Source: Candidatus Uhrbacteria bacterium RIFOXYB12_FULL_58_10 (GTDB lineage Bacteria; Patescibacteriota; Patescibacteriia; UBA9934; GWF2-40-263). From it: 49,835 bases of DNA. Numbering within the stretch: position 1 is the first letter of the stretch; each line of letters starts with the position of its first letter. This document shows positions 2,999 through 46,151 of the stretch, piece after piece. Made by a program: the position numbers and the translations under genes. Location of the stretch: NCBI GenBank assembly GCA_943357275.1, contig CALRGL010000001.1:1-49835 (forward strand), in the 5' to 3' direction. A model generated the notes under the pieces. The model was not told the origin of the DNA, ran no database searches, and was given only the letters and a program-made list of their open reading frames with translations.

Positions 2999-3877
2999 TT
3001 ACTTCCCCTTCTTGTTGTTGCCGCCCTTGTTGCCGCCACCGTTCGAGGTCTTGTTGGACTGGTGGGTGGGCTTCTTGGGCTTCGCGGTGCTGGTCTTCCC
3101 GCTGTTGTCACCGACGGTGCCGTCGGACTTGCGGGAGAGACCCATGCCGACCGGAACCGCTCCGCGCTGGTCCACCGGACGGAAGCCCTTCGAGGGGTCT
3201 TCCTTCCGCATGGGGCGCGGGGCGCGGGGCTTGAGGCTCTCGGTGTGGGCCTTCCCCTCCTCCGTCTCCTGCTGCCAGGCGGGGAAGAAGTTCAGGACCT
3301 TGAGCCAGTTCCCGAACACCGACTCGTTCCGCTCCTTGGCCGCACCGGCGCGCACGTAGATCTCGTGGGCCTTCTTGGGACCGAGGTCGGCGATGATCGC
3401 GAACGCGGCGAGCTTGGCCTCGGTCTCGAGGGCGGCGCGCGCGGTCGTGTGCCGATCGGTCTGGGTCTGGGCGACCTGGACCTTCTCGGCGTCGAGCTGG
3501 GTGCCGATCTGGCGACCACGCTCGCGAGCGGCCTCGAGCTGGGCGGCCTTCTCGGCGTTCGCCTTCTCATCGATCTTGCGCGCCTTGGCGGCGGCCTGGC
3601 GCCCCTGCTCCTGGTGGGCCTTGCCCTCCTTGGAGTCGAGCCACTTGGCGAAATCGACGACGGCGCGGGCGGCGGAGGACGTCAGCTCGAGATTGGCCGG
3701 AACCCGACCAATCTTGAACACACGCTCGATCCGATCCTCGACCTGCTGCGCTTCCGCGGCGAGATCGATGGTCTCGGGCTGCACGAAGGCGACGACCTCG
3801 ATCTGCTCGGGCCCGCAGGCCAAATATAAAATAGAAGCAACGGAACCGGCGGGGGTGGCGGAGTGGAGGTTGGACAC
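2999..3877 (-). CDS. Hypothetical Ala/Glu/Lys-rich coiled-coil protein with a basic Gly/Asn/Lys tail
   Basis: 292 aa, strongly GC-rich, GTG start preceded by AGAAGG. The central region looks coiled-coil (AAKARKIDEKANAEKAAQLEAARERG) and the C-terminus is KPKKPTHQSNKTSNGGGNKGGNNKKGK. No family recognised. Confidence 0.6.
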   Translation of the reverse strand: MSNLHSATPAGSVASILYLACGPEQIEVVAFVQPETIDLAAEAQQVEDRIERVFKIGRVPANLELTSSAARAVVDFAKWLDSKEGKAHQEQGRQAAAKARKIDEKANAEKAAQLEAARERGRQIGTQLDAEKVQVAQTQTDRHTTARAALETEAKLAAFAIIADLGPKKAHEIYVRAGAAKERNESVFGNWLKVLNFFPAWQQETEEGKAHTESLKPRAPRPMRKEDPSKGFRPVDQRGAVPVGMGLSRKSDGTVGDNSGKTSTAKPKKPTHQSNKTSNGGGNKGGNNKKGK

Positions 3878-4172
3878 TGTGAACCTTCTTTCTTTCTTCT
3901 TTTCAGAATCGAATCGGTCGGCGGGATGCCGTTTAACCCTTTGTGCGACGCACTCAAGGACCGATAAATATCTCCTGTGAAGCGGCTTCTCTCTCGAGCA
4001 GCCGTTTGTTCAGGAACTATTCATCCTAGAACGAAAAAGCAAGTTCTATCTTTCTCTTGAGAGGAAAACAAAACCTGCTTCTTGAGCTTATTCAGCTCTT
4101 GTCTCTTGTGTCCCCAGAGTCGGGCTCTCTTCTCCTTCGTTGGAAGGTACGTGATTGATCTTAACGAGAGAA

Positions 4173-4201
4173 AGAATACCACATTTTGACGGTTTTTTCA
4201 A
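4173..4201 (-). promoter_or_regulatory. Sigma70-type promoter (TTGAAA-N17-TATTCT) for the 2999..3877 gene, implying a ~300 nt leader
   Basis: Minus sense: TTGAAAaaaccgtcaaaatgtggTATTCT. It lies downstream of the 4310-4337 terminator. Confidence 0.45.
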
Positions 4202-4309
4202 GGGGTGGAGGCGAGAAATAGGCGAAAAATAAGGGAAATATCAAGAAAACTAAACGGATCCTTCACGATGTTCAGGATGACAGAATCAACAAAATAAATA
4301 ACAGAAGAA

Positions 4310-4337
4310 TAAAAAAAACGAAGCTCAAAGGCTTCGT
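4310..4337 (-). terminator. Rho-independent terminator ending the rsr-led operon
   Basis: Minus sense: ACGAAGCctttgaGCTTCGT followed by TTTTTTTT, immediately after the stop of 4357..4758. Confidence 0.65.
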
Positions 4338-4356
4338 CAGAACGTACGTTTGTACT

Positions 4357-4758
4357 CTATCGAGCGATCACAGATTCGAGTTCGTTGCTTTCTCGTTCCG
4401 CGATGGATGCCATCTGCCAGAAAAGAGGGTTGTCCGACGTGTTGTGCGTAATTGCGAATCGACGGAGCACACGAATGACTCGTCGCGGATCACCACCGAC
4501 CGGACAACCAGCAAGACGAGAAAGTGTCTTGCAGGTTCGTCGACGTGTGGCTGTGACATGCATCTCATCACCCAGTTTGGGCGTACCAAGGACACCGAAG
4601 GCAAGAGCACAATCTGCAAAATCGAGAGGTTCGTTCTTGTTGATACTTGCCATCTCACGAAGAACGTCGGCGACTCCCTGCCCATAGGCATGGGGCTCGA
4701 TCGTTTCTCTGGCTCGAATCGCGAGCAAGTCAAGAACCAGACTTGCATTTTGTGGCAT
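4357..4758 (-). CDS. Hypothetical protein (island)
   Basis: 133 aa ORF in the island operon, with a plausible helical composition. No family recognised. Confidence 0.5.
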   Translation of the reverse strand: MPQNASLVLDLLAIRARETIEPHAYGQGVADVLREMASINKNEPLDFADCALAFGVLGTPKLGDEMHVTATRRRTCKTLSRLAGCPVGGDPRRVIRVLRRFAITHNTSDNPLFWQMASIAERESNELESVIAR

Positions 4759-4792
4759 AGGGCACTCCTTTTGAGAGAAGGGTTGTTGAGAT

Positions 4793-5212
4793 TCAGTTGA
4801 TCAGGGTTTCAAGCTGGTCCGATGCTTCGCGAGCAAACTCCGCAATCGACTTGATCCGCGGATCAGGACTCTTCTTGAGTTTCTCGTAAGCTTCGGAAAG
4901 AACAATGGCGAGTGCAAGAGGTTGACCTTTGTCAGACGCTCCGCAAATCTCAGAGAGCTCACCGTAAAGAACCCTTCGCTGTGCCATGAGCTCCGTGTCG
5001 TCAGCTCGTGCCTGAGCGAGCAAACGGAAACCGATACCACAGTCCGAAAGGGTCAATATCTCGTTCTGAACCGCATTTGCGACCAAAACCAAATCGTGTG
5101 AAATCTCCAGAGCTCGGGCAAACGGCTTGAGACCGCGCCTTGCACTGGTCACATGAAAAGCAAGAATCTGCAACGTCCCCTGCGACTGAGTCGCAAGACC
5201 AAACTCATACAT
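4793..5212 (-). CDS. Hypothetical protein (island)
   Basis: 139 aa ORF in the island operon. No family recognised. Confidence 0.5.
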   Translation of the reverse strand: MYEFGLATQSQGTLQILAFHVTSARRGLKPFARALEISHDLVLVANAVQNEILTLSDCGIGFRLLAQARADDTELMAQRRVLYGELSEICGASDKGQPLALAIVLSEAYEKLKKSPDPRIKSIAEFAREASDQLETLIN

Positions 5213-5282
5213 CGTTCATTCTCCTTCCAAACGAAGAAAACTCCTCAACCGACAGGGATGCCAATGAGGAGTCGAAAGTTAA

Positions 5283-6158
5283 TCACTTTTTCTTCTTTCC
5301 GTCAAGGTATTCAATCGCTCGTTTGACGTCTGCAAGCGTCACGGTCTTTTGTTCTTTTTCTTTATGAAATCCCCAGTTTCGATTGAGTCCAAACGTGAAT
5401 CCCCCAAACTCCTTCAAAAGATCAACCGCGTACTTCGACTCTTGGACATAAATCAGTTGTCTGGCTCGTTCCACAACAATCAGTGGAGTTGGCTTCCCGA
5501 TTTCAAGCGCAACAATGCGAGAAATAAGTGGACGCAGTTGAATGTTCGCTGAACTTTCGATCACGAAAAATTGTTTCCAAGGTGTTTTTCTAAGCCATGC
5601 ATTGTAAGCGGCTTGTTCTTTTCGTGCTTCGGTTGCTAAGTTTGTAATTGGAGCTAAGAGCTTGTCGTGAAAATCCAAAACGATCTTCAGTTCCTTTTTA
5701 GAGTACCCCTCGTCTTGGAGCGCCCAAACATATCCTCGATCCATCACGCCGATTCCTTTAACCGTACGTGGATCGTAACCAAATTGCTTGAGACGAGCGT
5801 CGGTGATCTTAAACATCTTTAAAAACTGCTCAAGCGAGGAAGCGAGAAGCTTTCCTGTTTTTTCATCATACCCTCGATCTAAATCGGTATAGTTATGGTG
5901 ATCGATAATCTGCAGATCAACTCCAAGAGCACGCAACTTCGCTTCTGTTTTCAGCCCTGGCATTTCAACGACCACTACAGTTTTATAGCCTCCTTCTTTT
6001 ACCTGAGCAACAATATCATGTGTTCCTTTATCAAGAGACGCACCATGCAATTGTCCTGACGTGATGGTTGGAAGTCCAATTTTTTCTGCAAGCTCGGTAA
6101 TAAGAAATGCCTCAGCGTCGTTTGGTGGAATGATAAGGACCGTTGATTTGAGATTCAT
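5283..6158 (-). CDS. Hypothetical protein with a DHH-like motif (possible degenerate DHH phosphoesterase)
   Basis: I used the internal ATG at 6158 (MNLKSTVLIIPPNDAEAF...). The sequence contains VVVVEMPG...LQIIDHHNY. Its composition is AT-richer than its island neighbours. The ORF-track N-terminal extension is Cys/Arg-rich and was rejected. Confidence 0.45.
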   Translation of the reverse strand: MNLKSTVLIIPPNDAEAFLITELAEKIGLPTITSGQLHGASLDKGTHDIVAQVKEGGYKTVVVVEMPGLKTEAKLRALGVDLQIIDHHNYTDLDRGYDEKTGKLLASSLEQFLKMFKITDARLKQFGYDPRTVKGIGVMDRGYVWALQDEGYSKKELKIVLDFHDKLLAPITNLATEARKEQAAYNAWLRKTPWKQFFVIESSANIQLRPLISRIVALEIGKPTPLIVVERARQLIYVQESKYAVDLLKEFGGFTFGLNRNWGFHKEKEQKTVTLADVKRAIEYLDGKKKK

Positions 6159-6219
6159 ACGACACAAGTATACAACAAAAAACCGACCTACGAAGATAGG
6201 TCGGCAAGGCGCGATCAAC

Positions 6220-6789
6220 TCACAACGAACACGAAGACAAACCCTGAACCTTGTAAACACGCACAGCTTGATCAGCCAATGCGTCATCTCCAGGGTTCAG
6301 ATACAAACACAAACGCTCGCTGGCATGCTCATACTCGAGTCTCACCTCGACGGTCTGATAGAATCCGGTCTCACACCCTCTGGCCCAGTCGTACTGGGTA
6401 GAGATCGTCAGAACCTGACCATCAGACAAACGATAGGCCGTGCCCGATCCATTTCGCTTGGCATACCAGGTTCGGATCTTTCGACCCAGGAGCTCTGGTT
6501 GTTCAAGCAAGGTAAACACTTCCTCGGGAACCACGACCTGCGTGTTCATGACCACGGACCCGTCGTTAAATCGTTCCTCGGTGAACTTCAAGAGCTCGCC
6601 GATAATCTCATCACGAATGTCCGTGTTCTGGCATGATCCATCGCAGGCGTTGTGACTATACACGAAAGGCTTTTCTCCCCGGTACGAACGCTCCGGCATC
6701 TGCACGAGGTAGTGCTTACGCCCATCGCATACGCAGAGGGAATCAAGCCCATCGCTCGAACGTGCTGACACCCGGGTCACATCAAACAT
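6220..6789 (-). CDS. Hypothetical protein (island)
   Basis: Start moved to ATG 6789 (MFDVTRVS...), which is preceded by GGAG. 189 aa, Cys-containing, no family recognised. Confidence 0.45.
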   Translation of the reverse strand: MFDVTRVSARSSDGLDSLCVCDGRKHYLVQMPERSYRGEKPFVYSHNACDGSCQNTDIRDEIIGELLKFTEERFNDGSVVMNTQVVVPEEVFTLLEQPELLGRKIRTWYAKRNGSGTAYRLSDGQVLTISTQYDWARGCETGFYQTVEVRLEYEHASERLCLYLNPGDDALADQAVRVYKVQGLSSCSL

Positions 6790-6919
6790 GGGAAACTCCG
6801 CGACTCGTGAGAGTGAAGGGAAACATCGCGAGAGAGTCTCGTGATGCTTTCTGTGTGCGCGACGTGAAGTCGTGAACACGGAAAGAATCCCCGAGAATGT
6901 AATGGATCGAGATCATCGT

Positions 6920-7141
6920 TCAATCCATGTACAAGTCGATGTAGGAATCGACGATCGTCTCAAGGGAAGGAGAATGGTGCTGACAGTCATCATGCTCACC
7001 ATTGGGAGGCGGAAGTTCGGGCGACTCGATCTTTGTGCCCGGCGGGAGTTGAATCGAGATCGAAACGTGTTTTCCGTTTCGGCAAGTTTCGATCGTAAGT
7101 TCCGTTCCATAAACAGAAAAACCTGTAATCTTCACAGACAT
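6920..7141 (-). CDS. Small hypothetical protein (73 aa)
   Basis: ATG 7141 is preceded by GAGGAGG (cagaggaggtttccATG). Sequence begins MSVKITGFSVYGTELTIETCRNGKHVSISIQ... Confidence 0.4.
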   Translation of the reverse strand: MSVKITGFSVYGTELTIETCRNGKHVSISIQLPPGTKIESPELPPPNGEHDDCQHHSPSLETIVDSYIDLYMD

Positions 7142-7295
7142 GGAAACCTCCTCTGAAAGAGATTGCGATTGTTTCGCAAGACCATCTTGCGACCCTTTCT
7201 CGCATCGAAACGATTGCGCGTTACGAAGCGGGAAAGGGTCCCCAGAAATAGTGAGATCCCAGAATAGCAAGAAACAAGAAACACGACGACGAGGA

Positions 7296-7658
7296 TTAAG
7301 TCAGAGTGATCTGCACGAACGAGAAGCTCGCTCGGCCGATTTCCTCCTCCGTGTACTCGTGTCGATCGGTCAGACGCGGAAGGCCGGTCACCTGCATGAC
7401 GATGATCGAATCGCCCTGTTTGAGCGCGACGTTGACGGGACGCTCCGGGATCTCGATCTCGAGTCCGAAGCGGATCCGCGCCGCGTCCAGGGTAGCCTTG
7501 TGAGACGGGTTCACACAGAGTTCGCAGCTCGGCAGAGCTTCGCGTACCTGATCCGCGGTCAGGTCGTACTTGACCATGATCACGGTGCCGGTGGGAAGCA
7601 TCGAGGCCGAGAAAGCGAAACCAAAATAAACGCGATGCATGGGAACCTCCTCAAACAT
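7296..7658 (-). CDS. DUF1874 / AcrIII-1-like (viral ring nuclease family) candidate
   Basis: ...VYFGFAFSASMLPTGT...CVNPSHKATLDAARIRFG...ALKQGDSIIVMQVTG...TEEEI...FSFVQI. From memory, this matches the DUF1874 pattern (N-terminal AFSxxML, a conserved His in xxGHxxT, GDxxxVxQ). SD is GAGGAG. Confidence 0.5.
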   Translation of the reverse strand: MFEEVPMHRVYFGFAFSASMLPTGTVIMVKYDLTADQVREALPSCELCVNPSHKATLDAARIRFGLEIEIPERPVNVALKQGDSIIVMQVTGLPRLTDRHEYTEEEIGRASFSFVQITLT

Positions 7659-7667
7659 GGCAGGAAT

Positions 7668-7746
7668 CTCCTCAACGCTCCGAAGGATTTCGGGTCGTAA
7701 TTGAAGGACCAAGATTTCCAGTCTTGGTCAGAAGAAAACACTGAAG
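7668..7746 (-). repeat. Intergenic bipartite hairpin element, copy 1
   Basis: Minus sense: stop, then GACCAAGActggaaaTCTTGGTC (7707-7729), CCTTCAattacga, CCGAAatccTTCGG (7680-7693), gcgtTGAGGAG, then start. Confidence 0.6.
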
Positions 7747-7941
7747 TTACGCGATGTCGAACGGGAGGTTACGCGCCGGAGGCACGAGTTCCCGAACGAT
7801 CACGCCGGCTCGACGCACAGCAACAGGCGTCCGAGGCAAAGGCGCGTTTTTGCGTTTGCCCTGGATCACCGCTCCCATGGTCGGCCACGGATCCACACGG
7901 AGAATCGTCCCGTGGGATTTGGTCGAAAACTCGTTTTTCAC
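7747..7941 (-). CDS. Small hypothetical protein (64 aa), doubtful
   Basis: GTG start with no clear SD. Its stop sits exactly where the repeated intergenic element begins, as for the other island genes. Confidence 0.3.
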   Translation of the reverse strand: MKNEFSTKSHGTILRVDPWPTMGAVIQGKRKNAPLPRTPVAVRRAGVIVRELVPPARNLPFDIA

Positions 7942-7973
7942 AGTTTTTTTTCAAAAATGGTGGTGGATTTTTC

Positions 7974-8609
7974 TTAATCGTCGAGGTCTTCGTCGTCCTC
8001 GTCGTCCCATGCATCTTCACTACACTCGACAACAGCGAAGGACGTCAGTGGTGCGATGCGCAACAGGGCACGCAATCGATCCACTTCCTCGTGACCCTTC
8101 TTGATGAATGCGTGATGAAACCAGACGTCATCGTTCATAAGACCGCCGCCACCCATACCACCTGTAACACCTCCCACAAGCACCCAGCCTTCAAGGCGAG
8201 GCTCGCAGTCGTCCAGTGGTTCGCTCAGCATTTCGGCGGGAAGAACATTGCCCGGCAACATCGCTTCGTTGGCTACGTCTTCGAGAACCTTGCCACGGAT
8301 GACGCCACAGTCCTGCACGATGGACCACGACGCACCCTCGTCCTCATTGGACTCCCAGCTGGAGCGATCGAAAGTCTTCAAGAAGTCATCGACCTCACGG
8401 ACGGTGAAATCCGCAGGCAACATCGAGAGCGGAACCGACGCGTAAATCTGCCCGCCCCAGTCGCCTTCAAAGACGAGCCAGCGACGCACGTCGCGCTCAG
8501 CGATGAGATTTTCCAGTGGACGCTGCGCCCGCACGAACTCGTCTACCGCTTTTTGGCGAAGCATGAGACGTTCGATCAAATTCACGGCAGGATTGGTACG
8601 ATCGGACAT
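7974..8609 (-). CDS. Hypothetical protein with a strongly acidic C-terminal tail
   Basis: 211 aa with a GGAG SD. The C-terminus is ECSEDAWDDEDDEDLDD. No family recognised. Confidence 0.5.
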   Translation of the reverse strand: MSDRTNPAVNLIERLMLRQKAVDEFVRAQRPLENLIAERDVRRWLVFEGDWGGQIYASVPLSMLPADFTVREVDDFLKTFDRSSWESNEDEGASWSIVQDCGVIRGKVLEDVANEAMLPGNVLPAEMLSEPLDDCEPRLEGWVLVGGVTGGMGGGGLMNDDVWFHHAFIKKGHEEVDRLRALLRIAPLTSFAVVECSEDAWDDEDDEDLDD

Positions 8610-8626
8610 GTGAACTCCGATGAAGG

Positions 8627-35439: not shown

Positions 35440-35478
35440 AGTGAAATCAGTTTAACACAAATAAAAAAAATTCTTTGT

Positions 35479-35587
35479 CCTGGCGCCTGCTTACTCTCGC
35501 GCAAACGCACTACCATCAGCCTTGTAGAGCTTAACGACCGTGTTCGAGATGGGAACGGGTGTGACCTCTACATAAATAGCACCAAGA
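35479..35587 (-). rRNA. rrf: 5S rRNA
   Basis: The reverse complement reads CTTGGTGC...CCCGTTCCCATCTCGAACACGG...GATGGTAGTGCG...GCGCCAGG, with terminal helix CTTGGTGC/GCGCCAGG. Confidence 0.85.
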
Positions 35588-35784
35588 CAAAGAATTCTTT
35601 GTATTGAACAGTCTAACATCTCCAACAGGAGAAACATAACGTACGTATTTGATTCAAAATTGCGCAAGATGCGCCGGGCTGGAGGGCAAAAATGACCGAC
35701 CGCTAGGTTACCCTAGCGCGAGGTTATTTTTGACCGAAGCCCAAGCAGATTGCCAATTTTGTATCAAATACAGTAGTGGTTGTG

Positions 35785-38845
<3,061 letters not shown>

Positions 38846-39290
38846 ACAACCGCTACTGAATTTGATCATAGTAGCGTTGTGCTTCTCGTTTATTTGTCTT
38901 TGATATTAGACTTATTCAATTGTAAAGATCTTTGTTCTGTTTCCTTCGCTGTACTCGCGTAGATCTCGGAACCAGAGTTTCATTGCTTTGCAACGCGTCT
39001 CTGTGCCCGAGGACTAAAAAATCGCCTTATCGGCGATCCAAAAATAACTGCTTTGGATCGCTACTTATGTATGTGGTTGGCTAACACTATTCATAGGTTC
39101 GTACTCCGTAAGCCGTTACCTCTCTCCATCCCTCAGCACACTAGCAAATGGGTTATTTTTTGCAAGTGCTTCTTTCAGAAGTTTCCTGGGACAAAGAGGC
39201 AAAGACGTTTTAATGTGTTCTCAAAAGTCAGGGCAAGTTTAGGATAGATCAGAAACCCTGTCAAGGGTTCTATCCAGATGTTTTCCACAG

Positions 39291-43703: not shown

Positions 43704-43904
43704 GCTCCCAAATGGGTGCTTTTTTCTTTCCTTATCCCCATGAGTCATCTTGACATCATCTCTTTTCCATGGTTCCATACAAGTACACGAGAAAAGAAAT
43801 CCCACACGTTACTGACGTGCGGGATTTCTTTTTTTCTTTGTTCGCGACTTTGAAAAACAAAACCCGCATGAGCGCAACTTTAGTCACCCTAATGTTTGCA
43901 CCCT

Positions 43905-46151
43905 ATGTCTTACATGCCTCGCTTTGCAGGAATGCTTGTGACTGGTCTCTTACTTACTTCTGGACTCACTGCCCACGCCGCAGACCCATCGACCTTACAA
44001 CCATTCAAATATATTCACACAAAGATAACAGAGACAACAGAACTTGTCGGACTCTCTGATCAATCGTTTACTGATCTTCTTACTCAACTCAATCAAACGT
44101 ATGGAACCAGCAATGCCTCTTTCACAACTTGGATCACTGAGCCATCAAATTCCGCAGACTCAGGACTCAGTAGTCTTCTCCTCTCTCATGATGATTCCCA
44201 ATCGAATCCTCCAACAGATGAACCGCAACCAGCAGACGTTGTCCCTGCAGGAACTGATCGAGCTGGAGAACTTTCTGGAGGAGTCGTCGATGTCGGAACT
44301 GGAGGAGGAGATGTATTAAGCGAACCTGAACCAGCTGTCGAACCACCGACTGTTTCGTCAGCAACGACACTTCGTCTTTCTGAACTTTATCCAAACACAA
44401 ACAACGATCTCACAGATGAATTTATCGAAGTGCAAAACATTGGAGACGAACCTGTCTCACTCAAAGGATGGACGTTTCAAGACGCATCAGGAAAACAATT
44501 TATTGTAAGTGAAGATGTGATTATAGAACCTGGTGCGTATTCGGTCGTTGATCGTGCACAAAGCAAAATCGCCCTCAACAACGACACAGAAACCGTTCGT
44601 CTTTCAAGCCCTAATGGATCTGTGATTGATGAAGTTGCTTATGACGCGTCTACAAAAGGATCGACACTTTCAAGAATCAATAGCGAGTGGATTTGGACGG
44701 TTAATCAAACACCAAGCGCAGTAAACACAAAACCTGTTGAAGTAGCACCGATCGTGGAAGTTGTTCCTGTTACACCAACTGTTACTCCTGTCTCAGCTGT
44801 CACCCCTGTTGTTACACCCGTGATTTCTCAACCCGTTATTCCATCTGTACCAACACTAGAACCAGTGAATCCAATTGTTGTTCAACCGATTGAACCTGAA
44901 CTAGCACTACCACTTATAAAGACACTTCGTATTTCAGAAATCTTTCCAAACACGCTTGGCGACGATCTCACGGATGAATTTATTGAAATCGAAAATACAG
45001 GAACAGAATCAGCTTCACTTCAAGGCTGGACACTCGCTGACGCCTCTGGAAAAAAATTTACATTTGTTGATTCAGTTGTGATCGAACCTTCTCATTTTTT
45101 TACCGCGTATCATCCACTGACAAAACTCTCACTCAATAACGATGTTGATTCTGTTGTTCTCTCAACTCCGGGCGGTGAAGTGATTGATCAAGTCTCGTAT
45201 TCAAAAACAATCGATGGATCTTCTCTCTCGTTTGTAAACGGAACAAGTGTTTGGACAAATCCGACTCCTGGAACAGGAAGTGTACTCGTCGAACCTGTTA
45301 TCGAACCACCCATTCTTCTTGTATCGAATCCGGTTGTCGTAGCCGAATCTCCACAAAGTATTTCTGATCCAGTTATTACAGAGACAAATTCTTCTTCTCA
45401 GTCAACAAACAATGTTTCGATCAACAACGCACCTGACGGAGCCCTTGTAAACATTGAAGGACAAGTTCTCGTTGCACCAGGCATCCTTGGCAAACAAATT
45501 TTTTATGTGAACACAAACGGACAAGGCGTTCAGATTTATAAAAACGATGCTGTGTTCCCTCTTTTGCAAGAAGGACAATCTGTTCGTGTGAACGGTGAGA
45601 TGAGTACGTCACGTGACGAACGTCGAATCAAAATTACGGCCACAGGAAGTTTGGAACCACTTGAAACTGTTACACCACTTCAAGCAACAACTGTTTCACT
45701 TCCAACGATCAGTGCAACACTCCACGGACAATTTATTTCAACACAAGGAATGATCGTAAGTCGATCTGCAACAGAGATTCTTCTTGAAGATCAAGGGACA
45801 CAACTCATTGTTGGAATCAGTGATTACGCAAACATCGACACAACGATTTTTAACAAAGGCGATCTTCTTTCTGTGCAAGGAATTATTGTAAACCAAACAG
45901 GATCACTCAAACTTAAACCTCGATCTCAAAGCGACCTTGAAGTGATCATGCTTGAGTCGCCCGTTGTAACAGCAACAACCATTTCAGGAAAAGACCAGGC
46001 AAAAGCTGACCAACAAACACAGGCTCTTGCGATTGGCCTTGGAACAGGTGTTGTCTTACTTGCCTTTGCATTGCGTAAATACCATCCAAAATTCAACACG
46101 TCGTATGTCGCAAAACACACTCTCCCTATCTCAGCTCAAACTGTTCGTTGA
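43905..46151 (+). CDS. Secreted, C-terminally membrane-anchored protein with two lamin-tail (LTD) domains
   Basis: Signal peptide. Two copies of L(R)xSE(L/I)xPNT...DLTDEFIExxNxG...SLxGWTxxDASGKxF. Pro/Val/Thr linkers and a C-terminal TM segment (ALAIGLGTGVVLLAFAL). Confidence 0.7.
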   Translation: MSYMPRFAGMLVTGLLLTSGLTAHAADPSTLQPFKYIHTKITETTELVGLSDQSFTDLLTQLNQTYGTSNASFTTWITEPSNSADSGLSSLLLSHDDSQSNPPTDEPQPADVVPAGTDRAGELSGGVVDVGTGGGDVLSEPEPAVEPPTVSSATTLRLSELYPNTNNDLTDEFIEVQNIGDEPVSLKGWTFQDASGKQFIVSEDVIIEPGAYSVVDRAQSKIALNNDTETVRLSSPNGSVIDEVAYDASTKGSTLSRINSEWIWTVNQTPSAVNTKPVEVAPIVEVVPVTPTVTPVSAVTPVVTPVISQPVIPSVPTLEPVNPIVVQPIEPELALPLIKTLRISEIFPNTLGDDLTDEFIEIENTGTESASLQGWTLADASGKKFTFVDSVVIEPSHFFTAYHPLTKLSLNNDVDSVVLSTPGGEVIDQVSYSKTIDGSSLSFVNGTSVWTNPTPGTGSVLVEPVIEPPILLVSNPVVVAESPQSISDPVITETNSSSQSTNNVSINNAPDGALVNIEGQVLVAPGILGKQIFYVNTNGQGVQIYKNDAVFPLLQEGQSVRVNGEMSTSRDERRIKITATGSLEPLETVTPLQATTVSLPTISATLHGQFISTQGMIVSRSATEILLEDQGTQLIVGISDYANIDTTIFNKGDLLSVQGIIVNQTGSLKLKPRSQSDLEVIMLESPVVTATTISGKDQAKADQQTQALAIGLGTGVVLLAFALRKYHPKFNTSYVAKHTLPISAQTVR

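What the first reader, a model, noticed from the sequence alone, without database searches (positions are those of the whole stretch)
7296..7658. DUF1874 / AcrIII-1-like ring nuclease candidate in the same operon as Ro60
The 120-aa product is ...VYFGFAFSASMLPTGT...NPSHKATLDAARIRFG...KQGDSIIVMQV...TEEEIGRASFSFVQI. From memory, it matches the DUF1874 fold family in block order: N-terminal AFSxNML, a conserved catalytic His in a GHxxT-like block, GDxxxVxQ, and C-terminal EEI...F.

Established knowledge: DUF1874 proteins (AcrIII-1 / Crn2) are ring nucleases that degrade cyclic tetra-adenylate and neutralise type III CRISPR signalling. They are spread through viruses and mobile elements.

If this is correct, the operon is an anti-defence cassette. 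That raises the possibility that the co-transcribed Ro60-ncRNA module also acts in phage-host RNA conflict, for example as a decoy or in repair against tRNA- or rRNA-targeting effectors. I am not aware that this has been described.
Basis: partly seen in the sequence, partly recalled or inferred. Interest (0 to 1): 0.65.

Follow-up and report, generated by a model that had tools for sequence, protein, structure and literature searches.

The report
Divergent ring-nuclease homolog beside Ro60
The small gene is a real but divergent relative of the AcrIII-1/Crn2 enzymes that destroy a bacterial alarm molecule, yet it sits in a GC-rich island of a probable ultrasmall (CPR) bacterium's chromosome next to an Ro60 RNA-quality-control gene, with no virus genes or CRISPR in view.

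Summary
The ORF and the quoted motifs are real. Homologs and a GAGGAGG ribosome-binding site place the start at 7640 (114 aa), not 7658.

Pfam PF08960 scores below threshold (17.5 vs 26 bits), but homology to DUF1874 is solid:
- Profile-profile E 3.8e-9.
- AlphaFold pLDDT 91.6; all 16 significant PDB matches are DUF1874 structures (STIV B116, SIRV1 gp29/AcrIII-1, AFV3-109, Csx1-Crn2).
- His47, Thr50 and the loop Arg (R85→R89) and Leu are invariant; other cA4 contacts differ.

The "phage anti-defence cassette" reading is not supported. The window is a bacterial chromosome (rRNA, IleRS, RuvA) with no phage hallmark, cas gene or CRISPR array. The protein belongs to a roughly 240-360-cluster clade found almost only in Patescibacteria chromosomes, with a few phage contigs. 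Three regularities emerged:
- A TrmBL2-like regulator lies upstream in 31 of 77 loci and never downstream.
- The gene is much more GC-rich than its host in 69 of 77 loci.
- In the lineage of this Ro60, a DUF1874 gene follows Ro60 in six loci, drawn from two different subfamilies.

I found no publication describing this Ro60 link. Most likely it is a cA4-type ring nuclease carried on a horizontally acquired Ro60 island. Its activity and role are untested.

The parts
7296..7640 (-). Gene for a 114-aa DUF1874-fold protein of the Patescibacteria clade. The stop codon is 7296-7298.
   Evidence: ORF. 224 homologs, mostly 112-115 aa. AF2 pLDDT 91.6. Foldseek top 16 PDB hits are all DUF1874. hhalign against canonical DUF1874: E 3.8e-9. 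H47, T50, R89 and L90 align with the invariant H47, T50, R85 and L86 of SIRV1 gp29.
7646..7652 (-). Shine-Dalgarno-like GAGGAGG, 5 nt upstream of the ATG at 7640.
   Evidence: Read directly from the sequence. The same GAGGAGG precedes the small ORF at 6920-7141.
9826..11400 (-). Ro60/Rsr homolog (TROVE plus Ro60 vWA domains), four ORFs upstream on the same strand.
   Evidence: Pfam PF25045 at 2.8e-12 and PF05731 at 7.6e-8. phrog_850 at 4e-36. GC3 of 0.74 is as atypical as that of the DUF1874 gene.
9270..9800 (-). DUF7448 protein gene. The start is uncertain, and the listed ORF runs on to 10136, into Ro60.
   Evidence: PF24240 at 1.1e-23. phrog_2650 at 2.6e-36.
8703..9242 (-). p179, a protein of unknown function conserved in the related Ro60 locus L017.
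   Evidence: tblastn 49% identity to L017. No Pfam, PHROG, PADLOC or NCBIfam hit (not in the PHROG query set).
7974..8609 (-). p211, the immediate upstream neighbour. It belongs to a family of 473 proteins; the few that carry source names are from Patescibacteria. Motifs GDWGGQxY, GGMGGG and WxH. Function unknown.
   Evidence: Alignments. Homolog search. It sits next to DUF1874 in L017 and L093, overlapping it in L093. It lies downstream of the TrmB-like gene in L172-L174.
6920..7141 (-). Possible 73-aa small ORF downstream of the gene, with the same GAGGAGG ribosome-binding site.
   Evidence: No family hit. Not otherwise validated.
6220..6879 (-). p219, function unknown, same strand.
   Evidence: Weak homolog (32% identity) in L091/L095.
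5283..6155 (-). p334 family protein (about 290 aa from the internal ATG). Invariant IIDHHxY motif. Host-like GC. Conserved in five Ro60-lineage loci.
   Evidence: No PDB, Pfam or NCBIfam hit.
13441..14193 (-). TrmBL2/TrmB-type regulator (250 aa), the recurrent upstream partner of this DUF1874 clade.
   Evidence: PF01978. AF2 pLDDT 90.9 with Foldseek hit TrmBL2 5bpd at E 7e-13. Upstream of DUF1874 in 31 of 77 loci and never downstream.
2999..12541 (.). GC-rich stretch (about 52-57% against about 45% in the flanks) that holds the Ro60-to-DUF1874 gene run.
   Evidence: Composition profile. Per-gene GC and GC3.

Best explanation
The gene encodes a divergent member of the DUF1874 (STIV B116-like) superfamily, which contains the AcrIII-1 and Crn2 ring nucleases.

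Most likely mechanism (inferred): it acts as a homodimeric, metal-independent phosphodiesterase. It would bind a cyclic oligoadenylate, probably cA4, at the dimer interface. His47 would act as general acid. A mobile loop (about residues 86-97, carrying Arg89) would close over the ligand. Cleavage would give linear A2>P and switch off cOA-activated effectors.

Setting (shown): it is not on a phage. It sits in a compositionally foreign, GC-rich gene run in what is probably a Patescibacteria chromosome. The run reads Ro60, DUF7448, p179, p211, DUF1874 and lies downstream of a TrmBL2-like regulator.

Shown: homology, fold, conservation of the catalytic His and loop Arg, chromosomal setting, TrmB linkage and Ro60 linkage. 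Inferred: dimerisation, cA4 as substrate, and the role as a signal quencher functionally coupled to Ro60.
For: - Profile of 96 homologs against PDB sequences: the only hit is AFV3-109 (E 0.0048), with His aligned.
- AF2 model pLDDT 91.6.
- Foldseek against PDB: all 16 hits with E<=1e-3 are DUF1874 structures, including cA4-bound SIRV1 gp29 (6scf) and Csx1-Crn2. TM is about 0.7.
- Foldseek against BFVD: the top hits are STIV B116 and the THSA-485A DUF1874 protein.
- hhalign of the clade against six canonical DUF1874 proteins: probability 96%, E 3.8e-9, 109 columns.
- In the joint alignment H47, T50, R85 and L86 of SIRV1 gp29 are invariant, and E88 aligns with the clade-invariant D92.
- The paper states that H47 is the general acid (H47A is more than 2500-fold slower) and that R85 locks loop 82-94 (10.1101/778746).
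- Clade-invariant residues cluster in the three segments that contact cA4 in gp29.
- The model's lowest-confidence stretch (residues 81-100) covers the equivalent of that mobile loop.
- In Saccharibacteria loci L006/L020 a clade member lies beside a 757-aa protein with a Csx3 domain (PF09620, 29.8 bits). Csx3 is a known cA4-binding, ring-nuclease domain (literature).
- Chromosomal context. GC excess. Ro60 linkage.
Against: - The Pfam PF08960 score is below the gathering threshold. NCBIfam and PADLOC give nothing.
- Several cA4 contacts of gp29 are not kept: N8 becomes F, N13 becomes S, S49 becomes A, and the canonical N65/R66 pair is lost.
- The clade has its own invariant motifs, NPSH and RLTDRHEY, which add an extra Arg and His to the loop. 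The substrate could therefore differ.
- No cOA synthase (Cas10 or CD-NTase) or CARF/SAVED effector was recognised in the window or in the island proteins.
- No CRISPR array lies near any of 77 loci.
- By my recollection, CPR bacteria rarely have CRISPR-Cas, so the source of cA4 is unknown.
- A preprint reports that SIRV2 gp37, a close gp29 homolog, has a second function unrelated to cA4: it binds a host lysine methyltransferase.
Confidence: 0.6

Rival explanations
1. It is a classical anti-CRISPR (AcrIII-1). In this view the gene sits on a prophage or mobile-element remnant and degrades cA4 made by a type III CRISPR system. That system could belong to this bacterium or to the host cell on which a CPR epibiont lives. 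The neighbouring Ro60 genes would be further anti-defence cargo.
For: - Same fold and catalytic His as AcrIII-1.
- Clade members occur on nine IMG/VR contigs and on a 99-kb contig with portal and Mu-F genes.
- Ro60, DUF7448 and this protein each match a PHROG phage family.
- The genes are GC-rich relative to their hosts in 69 of 77 loci, as expected for recently transferred DNA.
Against: - The island has no integrase, capsid, terminase or other phage hallmark.
- Synteny from IleRS-TrmB to Smr-RuvA is conserved in relatives at about 60% protein identity. This does not look like a recent prophage.
- No tblastn match in 50,697 GenBank phage genomes.
- No CRISPR or cas genes in the window or the related loci.
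- 63 loci come from species-representative genomes, mostly with housekeeping neighbours.
Confidence: 0.15
2. The DUF1874 fold has been repurposed. The protein would act on RNA, or on a protein partner, together with Ro60 rather than on cA4. One possibility is metal-independent cleavage or trimming of an RNA loop or end, leaving a 2',3'-cyclic phosphate, within an Ro60/Y-RNA quality-control pathway. Another is pure binding.
For: - Two divergent DUF1874 subfamilies occupy the slot just downstream of Ro60 in related loci.
- Several cA4 contacts are replaced, and a clade-specific RLTDRHEY loop appears.
- No cOA synthase or sensor is recognisable nearby.
- SIRV2 gp37 has a cA4-independent protein-binding function.
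Against: - The catalytic His, T50 and the loop Arg/Leu are exactly the residues kept.
- The canonical-type proteins next to Ro60 in L090 and L093 carry the full GHxxTA, NR and RLPEG motifs of proven cA4 nucleases.
- Most clade members have no Ro60 nearby. Only three of 77 DUF1874 loci do.
Confidence: 0.2
3. It is a spurious or decaying ORF with no function.
For: The gene is flanked by unusually long gaps (333 nt to the nearest large upstream ORF, p211, and 416 nt to the nearest large downstream ORF, p219). A 186-aa antisense ORF overlaps it.
Against: - 224 homologs, 15 invariant columns and a confident fold.
- The antisense ORFs are what a GC-rich gene is expected to produce (my interpretation).
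Confidence: 0.01

Closest known systems
AcrIII-1 (viral DUF1874 ring nuclease; SIRV1 gp29, PDB 6SCF/2X4I; also STIV B116 and AFV3-109)
   Same: - Same size (114 aa).
- Same fold (Foldseek E about 1e-6, TM about 0.7).
- Same His47/Thr50 motif position.
- Same Arg-Leu at the start of the mobile loop, and an acidic residue three positions later.
   Different: - Only about 20% identity. Pfam is sub-threshold.
- NPSH replaces IGH. RLTDRHEY replaces RLxEG.
- N8 and the N65/R66 contacts are lost.
- The gene is encoded in a bacterial chromosome, not a virus.
- No type III CRISPR is in evidence.
Crn2 (cellular DUF1874 ring nuclease, stand-alone or fused as Csx1-Crn2; PDB 8Y7F/8Y7G)
   Same: - Cell-encoded DUF1874 domain.
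- Structural match at E 8e-5 to 5e-4.
   Different: - Crn2 is defined by its association with type III CRISPR loci or by fusion to Csx1. A survey found it in only seven type III loci.
- Here no cas gene or CRISPR array lies nearby in the window or in 77 related loci.
- The extended clade members showed no recognisable Csx1/CARF domain.
Bacterial Ro60 (Rsr)/Y-RNA RNA quality-control operons
   Same: A Ro60 ortholog heads a co-directional gene run. An ORF-poor stretch of about 2 kb lies upstream of it and could hold ncRNAs. Bacterial Y RNAs are typically encoded next to rsr (PMC4201824, seen; details from my own knowledge).
   Different: - No Rfam Y RNA was detected.
- The partners here are DUF7448, p179, p211 and DUF1874. 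By my recollection, Ro60 acts with PNPase in Deinococcus and rsr lies in an operon with rtcBA in Salmonella.
- No paper in the searched library mentions DUF1874 together with Ro60, Rsr or TROVE.

Membership tests
DUF1874 / Pfam PF08960 (STIV_B116-like) | Match to the Pfam HMM at or above the gathering score (26 bits) | tested here: not met
   17.5 bits, E 0.0047, covering profile positions 16-100 of 101. 31 of 96 clade members reach E<0.01. Some homologs carry a precomputed PF08960.17 hit.
DUF1874 / Pfam PF08960 (STIV_B116-like) | Sequence-profile homology to canonical members over the full length | tested here: met
   hhalign of the clade against six canonical proteins: probability 96%, E 3.8e-9, 109 columns. 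The clade profile hits AFV3-109 as the only PDB sequence.
DUF1874 / Pfam PF08960 (STIV_B116-like) | The DUF1874 fold | tested here: met
   AF2 pLDDT 91.6, pTM 0.84. All 16 significant PDB matches, and the top BFVD matches, are DUF1874 proteins with TM 0.66-0.73.
AcrIII-1/Crn2 ring nucleases | Absolutely conserved catalytic histidine (H47 of SIRV1 gp29) followed by Thr50 | tested here: met
   H47 is invariant and T50 nearly invariant in 96 clade members. Both are invariant in the joint alignment with six canonical proteins. Their role is described.
AcrIII-1/Crn2 ring nucleases | Mobile loop with the locking arginine (R85) and RLxE motif | tested here: met
   R89 and L90 align with R85 and L86 and are invariant. 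D92 aligns with E88. The model's confidence dips over residues 81-100.
AcrIII-1/Crn2 ring nucleases | Remaining cA4-contact residues (N8, S11, N13, S49, R66, Q81) | tested here: inconclusive
   - Kept: S11 and Q (Q83) in this protein.
- Changed: N8 to F, N13 to S, S49 to A.
- The canonical N65/R66 pair is not kept in the clade.
AcrIII-1/Crn2 ring nucleases | Homodimer enclosing cA4, with cA4 cleaved to A2>P | not testable with these tools
   Only a monomer model could be made.
AcrIII-1 (anti-CRISPR sense) | Encoded by a virus or mobile element that meets type III CRISPR | tested here: not met
   - Chromosomal context with rRNA, IleRS and RuvA.
- No phage hallmark gene.
- No match in GenBank phages.
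- However, the composition is foreign, and some clade members are on viral contigs.
Crn2 (cellular sense) | Located in or beside a type III CRISPR-Cas locus, or fused to a CARF effector | tested here: not met
   - No cas or CRISPR in the 49.8-kb window.
- None in the fetched flanks (up to 10 kb) of 77 loci.
- No CARF domain in the extended clade members.

The most novel reading that the evidence does not exclude
Patescibacteria may carry a horizontally mobile, GC-rich cassette that inserts downstream of a core TrmBL2-like regulator. In this cassette an Ro60/ncRNA RNA-quality-control module would be functionally coupled to a ring nuclease. The nuclease would shut off a cyclic-oligoadenylate alarm, either the cell's own or one met through the host or a phage. 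Ro60 would then clear or rescue the RNAs damaged by cOA-activated RNases. That would make it a 'signal-off plus RNA clean-up' system operating without CRISPR. The replacement of one DUF1874 subfamily by another in the same slot next to Ro60 is the main hint.
Probability: 0.2. Interest if true: 0.8.

Novelty: new variant of a known kind. Interest (0 to 1): 0.5.

Why it matters
Ring nucleases of the DUF1874 family are currently pictured in two ways: as viral anti-CRISPRs, or as rare regulators attached to type III CRISPR (seven loci in a recent survey).

This case differs in several ways:
- A sizeable, divergent clade sits in the chromosomes of ultrasmall CPR bacteria, which by my recollection rarely have CRISPR-Cas.
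- It is tied to a conserved TrmBL2-like regulator.
- In one lineage it is tied to Ro60.

If the enzyme does cleave cA4, then cOA signalling, or defence against it, matters in CPR biology. Bacterial Ro60 would also gain a new and testable functional partner. If it does not cleave cA4, the family has a second activity.

Tried and rejected
1. **TrmB-like regulator as a cOA sensor (CARF-like C-terminal domain): rejected.** The AF2 model (pLDDT 90.9) matches TrmBL2/TrmB end to end. Its C-terminal domain matches the PLD-family nuclease NucT and the TrmB sugar-binding domain.
2. **Single-sequence search against PDB sequences:** only noise hits to designed proteins.
3. **tblastn against 50,697 GenBank phages:** no match.
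4. **PADLOC and NCBIfam on the island proteins:** nothing useful.
5. **Profiles of p334 and p211 against PDB sequences:** nothing. The homolog search for p211 gave 473 unnamed proteins without Pfam domains; the few with source names are from Patescibacteria.
6. **Longer clade members with extra N- or C-terminal sequence:** no informative Pfam domain, and some may be miscalled starts.
7. **Ro60 as a single-sequence query in metagenome and viral contigs:** found nothing. It worked only with a 3-sequence alignment.
8. **Rfam on the TrmB-Ro60 gap:** only spurious miRNA-model hits on a palindrome.
9. **Expression-related codon bias as the cause of the GC excess: rejected.** Ribosomal-protein genes in the same loci have host-like GC3 of about 0.33.
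10. **Prophage reading of the island: rejected** for lack of any hallmark gene.

Full report
**1. The observation**

The minus strand carries an ORF ending at 7296. A second ATG at 7640 is preceded by GAGGAGG with a 5-nt spacer. Most of the 120 listed homologs (of 224 found) are 112-115 aa, including a 96%-identical protein of 114 aa. The gene is therefore best placed at 7296-7640 (114 aa, MHRVYFGF...).

It is clearly a real gene. Ninety-six homologs align with 51% mean column identity and 15 invariant columns.

**2. Is it DUF1874?**

Pfam PF08960 matches nearly full length but at 17.5 bits (E 0.0047), below the 26-bit gathering score. PHROGs gives only a family of unknown function. PADLOC and NCBIfam give nothing. 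A single-sequence search of PDB sequences gives noise.

Stronger methods settle it:
- A profile of the 96 homologs finds one PDB sequence only, AFV3-109, a crenarchaeal-virus DUF1874 protein. The histidine motifs align.
- An AlphaFold2 model from that alignment is confident (pLDDT 91.6, pTM 0.84).
- Foldseek against the PDB returns 16 significant matches, all of them DUF1874 structures. They are STIV B116, SIRV1 ORF114/gp29 (apo and the cA4 complex 6SCF), AFV3-109 and the Crn2 domain of Csx1-Crn2. TM scores are about 0.7. The next hit has E of about 1.
- The viral structure library gives the same answer.

I then fetched SIRV1 gp29 and five other canonical DUF1874 genes from annotated virus records. 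A profile-profile comparison with the clade gives probability 96% and E 3.8e-9 over 109 columns.

**3. Catalytic residues**

The AcrIII-1 paper names the following (10.1101/778746):
- His47 is the absolutely conserved general acid; H47A is more than 2500-fold slower.
- Arg85 locks the mobile loop 82-94 over cA4.
- N8, S11, N13, S49, T50, R66 and Q81 are further contacts.

In the joint alignment, the columns invariant across both groups are exactly H47, T50, R85 and L86 of gp29. These correspond to H47, T50, R89 and L90 here. E88 aligns with the clade-invariant D92, and S11 and M14 are kept in this protein.

Not kept:
- N8 becomes F.
- N13 becomes S.
- S49 becomes A.
- The canonical N65/R66 pair is lost.

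The clade has its own invariant motifs, N44-P-S-H47 and L87-P-R-L-T-D-R-H-E-Y96, which add a second Arg and His to the loop. The model's lowest-confidence stretch (residues 81-100) covers this loop.

The core catalytic apparatus is therefore present, but the ligand pocket has been remodelled. Ring-nuclease activity is a good prediction. cA4 as the exact substrate is an inference.

**4. Where the gene sits**

The window is a bacterial chromosome, not a virus:
- It carries 23S and 5S rRNA and three tRNAs.
- It carries RuvA, Smr, IleRS, RpiB, transketolase, kinases and dehydrogenases.
- It has no cas gene, no CRISPR array and no phage hallmark gene.

The gene lies in a one-directional run on the minus strand: Ro60 (9826-11400), DUF7448, p179, p211, DUF1874, a possible 73-aa ORF, p219, p334 and so on. 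The run is bounded by a TrmB-type regulator plus IleRS on one side and by Smr, a nucleotidyltransferase-like gene and RuvA on the other. No terminator-like site lies on that strand between Ro60 and the gene, but a 333-nt gap precedes it. Co-transcription is therefore plausible, not shown.

This stretch is GC-rich, 52-57% against about 45%. Per gene:
- GC3 is 0.74 for Ro60, 0.76 for DUF1874, 0.65 for p211 and 0.89 for p292.
- GC3 is 0.30-0.42 for TrmB, IleRS, p334, Smr and RuvA.

**5. The clade**

An exhaustive profile search of 1.84 billion representatives finds 363 clusters at E<=1e-3 and 237 at E<=1e-10. Among one-genome-per-species assemblies there are 63 loci. Almost all are labelled Patescibacteria: Saccharibacteria above all, and also Paceibacteria, Kaiser-, Adler-, Morani-, Doudna- and Andersenbacteria. 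A few contigs carry odd labels.

Nine loci are on IMG/VR viral contigs. One homolog is on a 99-kb contig with portal and Mu-F genes. There is no match in 50,697 GenBank phage genomes.

Sampled chromosomal contexts are often housekeeping, for example DnaE/RNase HII and L10/L12. No CRISPR-like array occurs in any of the fetched loci. The window's organism is probably a patescibacterium. That is an inference from the homolog labels and from the 23S-5S pair with no 16S nearby.

**6. Three regularities found in the related loci**

(a) *TrmB linkage.* After clustering all ORFs of the 77 non-redundant loci, the only strongly recurrent neighbour is the TrmB-like regulator.
- It is present in 31 loci, always upstream of the DUF1874 gene and never downstream.
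- It is either directly adjacent, divergent or co-directional with gaps of 150-630 nt, or separated by one to seven variable genes.
- The regulator is a highly conserved protein; the named homologs are from Patescibacteria, at 52-60% identity in e.g. Uhrbacteria.
- Its model matches archaeal TrmBL2/TrmB throughout. It is an ordinary member of that family, not a cOA sensor.

(b) *GC excess.* The DUF1874 gene is more GC-rich than the rest of its locus in 69 of 77 loci, with a median excess of 11.8 points and GC3 up to 0.93.
- On several viral contigs its GC equals that of the contig.
- Ribosomal-protein genes in the same loci have host-like GC3, so this is not expression-related codon bias.
- The excess points to horizontal origin. 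I cannot reconcile it with the conserved position next to TrmB.

(c) *Ro60 linkage.* I collected 83 Ro60 loci from metagenomes and viral contigs using a Ro60 alignment. HMM and tblastn scans find a DUF1874 gene in three of them. All three are among the seven closest relatives of this Ro60, and in each it lies within 1.5 kb downstream of Ro60.
- L089 has a member of the Patescibacteria clade.
- L090 and L093 instead have a canonical-type DUF1874, 41-42% identical to the phage THSA-485A protein, with full GHxxTA, NR and RLPEG motifs.
- Together with the window, L017 and the more distant L041 (Ro60 41% identical), six loci show the pairing, using two subfamilies.
- The roughly 75 more distant Ro60 loci have none, and only three of 77 DUF1874 loci have Ro60.
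- The link is thus lineage-restricted. The replacement of one subfamily by the other in the same slot argues for a functional connection rather than mere inheritance.
- Ro60 and both kinds of DUF1874 share the GC excess in these genomes.
- p211, the upstream neighbour, belongs to a family of 473 unannotated proteins (the few with source names are from Patescibacteria). In three of three sampled loci it also sits downstream of the same TrmB-like gene, once with Ro60, and it is also GC-rich in one of them (L172).

The region downstream of this regulator therefore behaves as a slot for GC-rich cargo: Ro60, p179, p211, DUF1874 and, in some Saccharibacteria, a Csx3-domain/Fic protein with an HD protein.

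**7. Interpretation**

*Best supported (0.6).* A divergent DUF1874 ring-nuclease homolog that most likely dimerises and cleaves cA4 or a close relative through His47. It is carried in a horizontally acquired Ro60 gene run in a chromosome.
- The Csx3-domain neighbour in Saccharibacteria is the only independent contextual hint of cA4 biology.
- The absence of any recognisable cOA synthase or effector is the main weakness.

*Rivals.*
- A true anti-CRISPR on a mobile remnant (0.15).
- A repurposed fold acting with Ro60 on RNA or on a protein (0.2). A preprint reports that SIRV2 gp37, a close gp29 homolog, is not an anti-CRISPR in its native infection and binds a host methyltransferase.
- A spurious ORF (0.01).

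**8. Comparison with the literature**

- A recent survey found Crn2 in only seven type III loci and AcrIII-1 in 36 of 28,114 phage genomes. It proposed a viral origin.
- None of the top-ranked papers returned by the full-text searches contains DUF1874 together with Patescibacteria, Saccharibacteria or CPR terms, or with Ro60, Rsr or TROVE.
- The protein is therefore a new variant of a known kind. Family membership at superfamily level is secure, and partly anticipated by Pfam hits on some homologs.
- The CPR-chromosomal distribution, the TrmB linkage, the GC anomaly and the Ro60 pairing appear to be undescribed.

Noticed in passing
window 11448-11518: A near-perfect palindromic hairpin of about 70 nt lies about 50 nt upstream of the Ro60 start. 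It draws only spurious miRNA-model hits in Rfam. It could be a regulatory or ncRNA stem.
   Followed up: partly
window 12290-12334 and 12495-13047 (within the ORF-poor TrmB-Ro60 gap, 11400-13440): A 31-45-nt element is 89-94% identical in related loci L017 and L092. A further 550-nt stretch is about 69% identical to L017. Rfam finds no Y RNA. This is a candidate region for an Ro60-associated ncRNA.
   Followed up: partly
77 DUF1874 loci (L001-L088 and the window); window genes 2999-11400: The DUF1874 clade gene is consistently far more GC-rich than its host locus (median +11.8 points; GC3 up to 0.93). In these genomes Ro60, and in the window and L172 also p211, share the excess. The adjacent TrmB-like gene and ribosomal-protein genes are host-like. 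This is not reconciled with the conserved gene position.
   Followed up: partly
L027, L042, L048, L077, L060, L064 and others; window 13441-14193: A conserved TrmBL2-like regulator lies upstream of the DUF1874 clade gene in 31 of 77 loci and never downstream. The space between them holds variable cargo.
   Followed up: yes
L006 4876-7149 (also L020): A 757-aa protein in Saccharibacteria has a Csx3 domain (PF09620, 29.8 bits) and a weak Fic-like C-terminus. It is followed by an HD protein, a DUF1874 clade gene and a Fic protein. This may be a cA4-sensing effector outside any CRISPR locus.
   Followed up: partly
window 5283-6155 (-): The p334 family has invariant PxNDxEA, VEMPGxKTE and IIDHHxY motifs that suggest an enzyme, perhaps a DHH-like phosphoesterase. 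It has no hit in Pfam, NCBIfam or PDB sequences. Its GC is host-like. It is conserved in five Ro60-lineage loci.
   Followed up: partly
window 7974-8609 (-); L172-L174: The p211 family has 473 proteins and no annotation; the few with source names are from Patescibacteria. It has motifs GDWGGQxY, GGMGGG and WxH, and it recurs downstream of the TrmB-like gene with or without Ro60.
   Followed up: partly
window 35478-38848: The 23S rRNA is 3070 nt against a 2925-nt model. It is paired with a 5S gene, but no 16S gene lies within the 11 kb upstream. From my own knowledge, unlinked rRNA genes and rRNA insertions are reported in CPR bacteria.
   Followed up: no
window 2999-3877 (-): A 292-aa Lys/Ala/Glu-rich low-complexity protein has extreme GC3 (0.89) and no family match.
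   Followed up: no
window 43896-46151 (+): A 751-aa protein has two Lamin Tail Domains (PF00932, E 7e-34).
   Followed up: no
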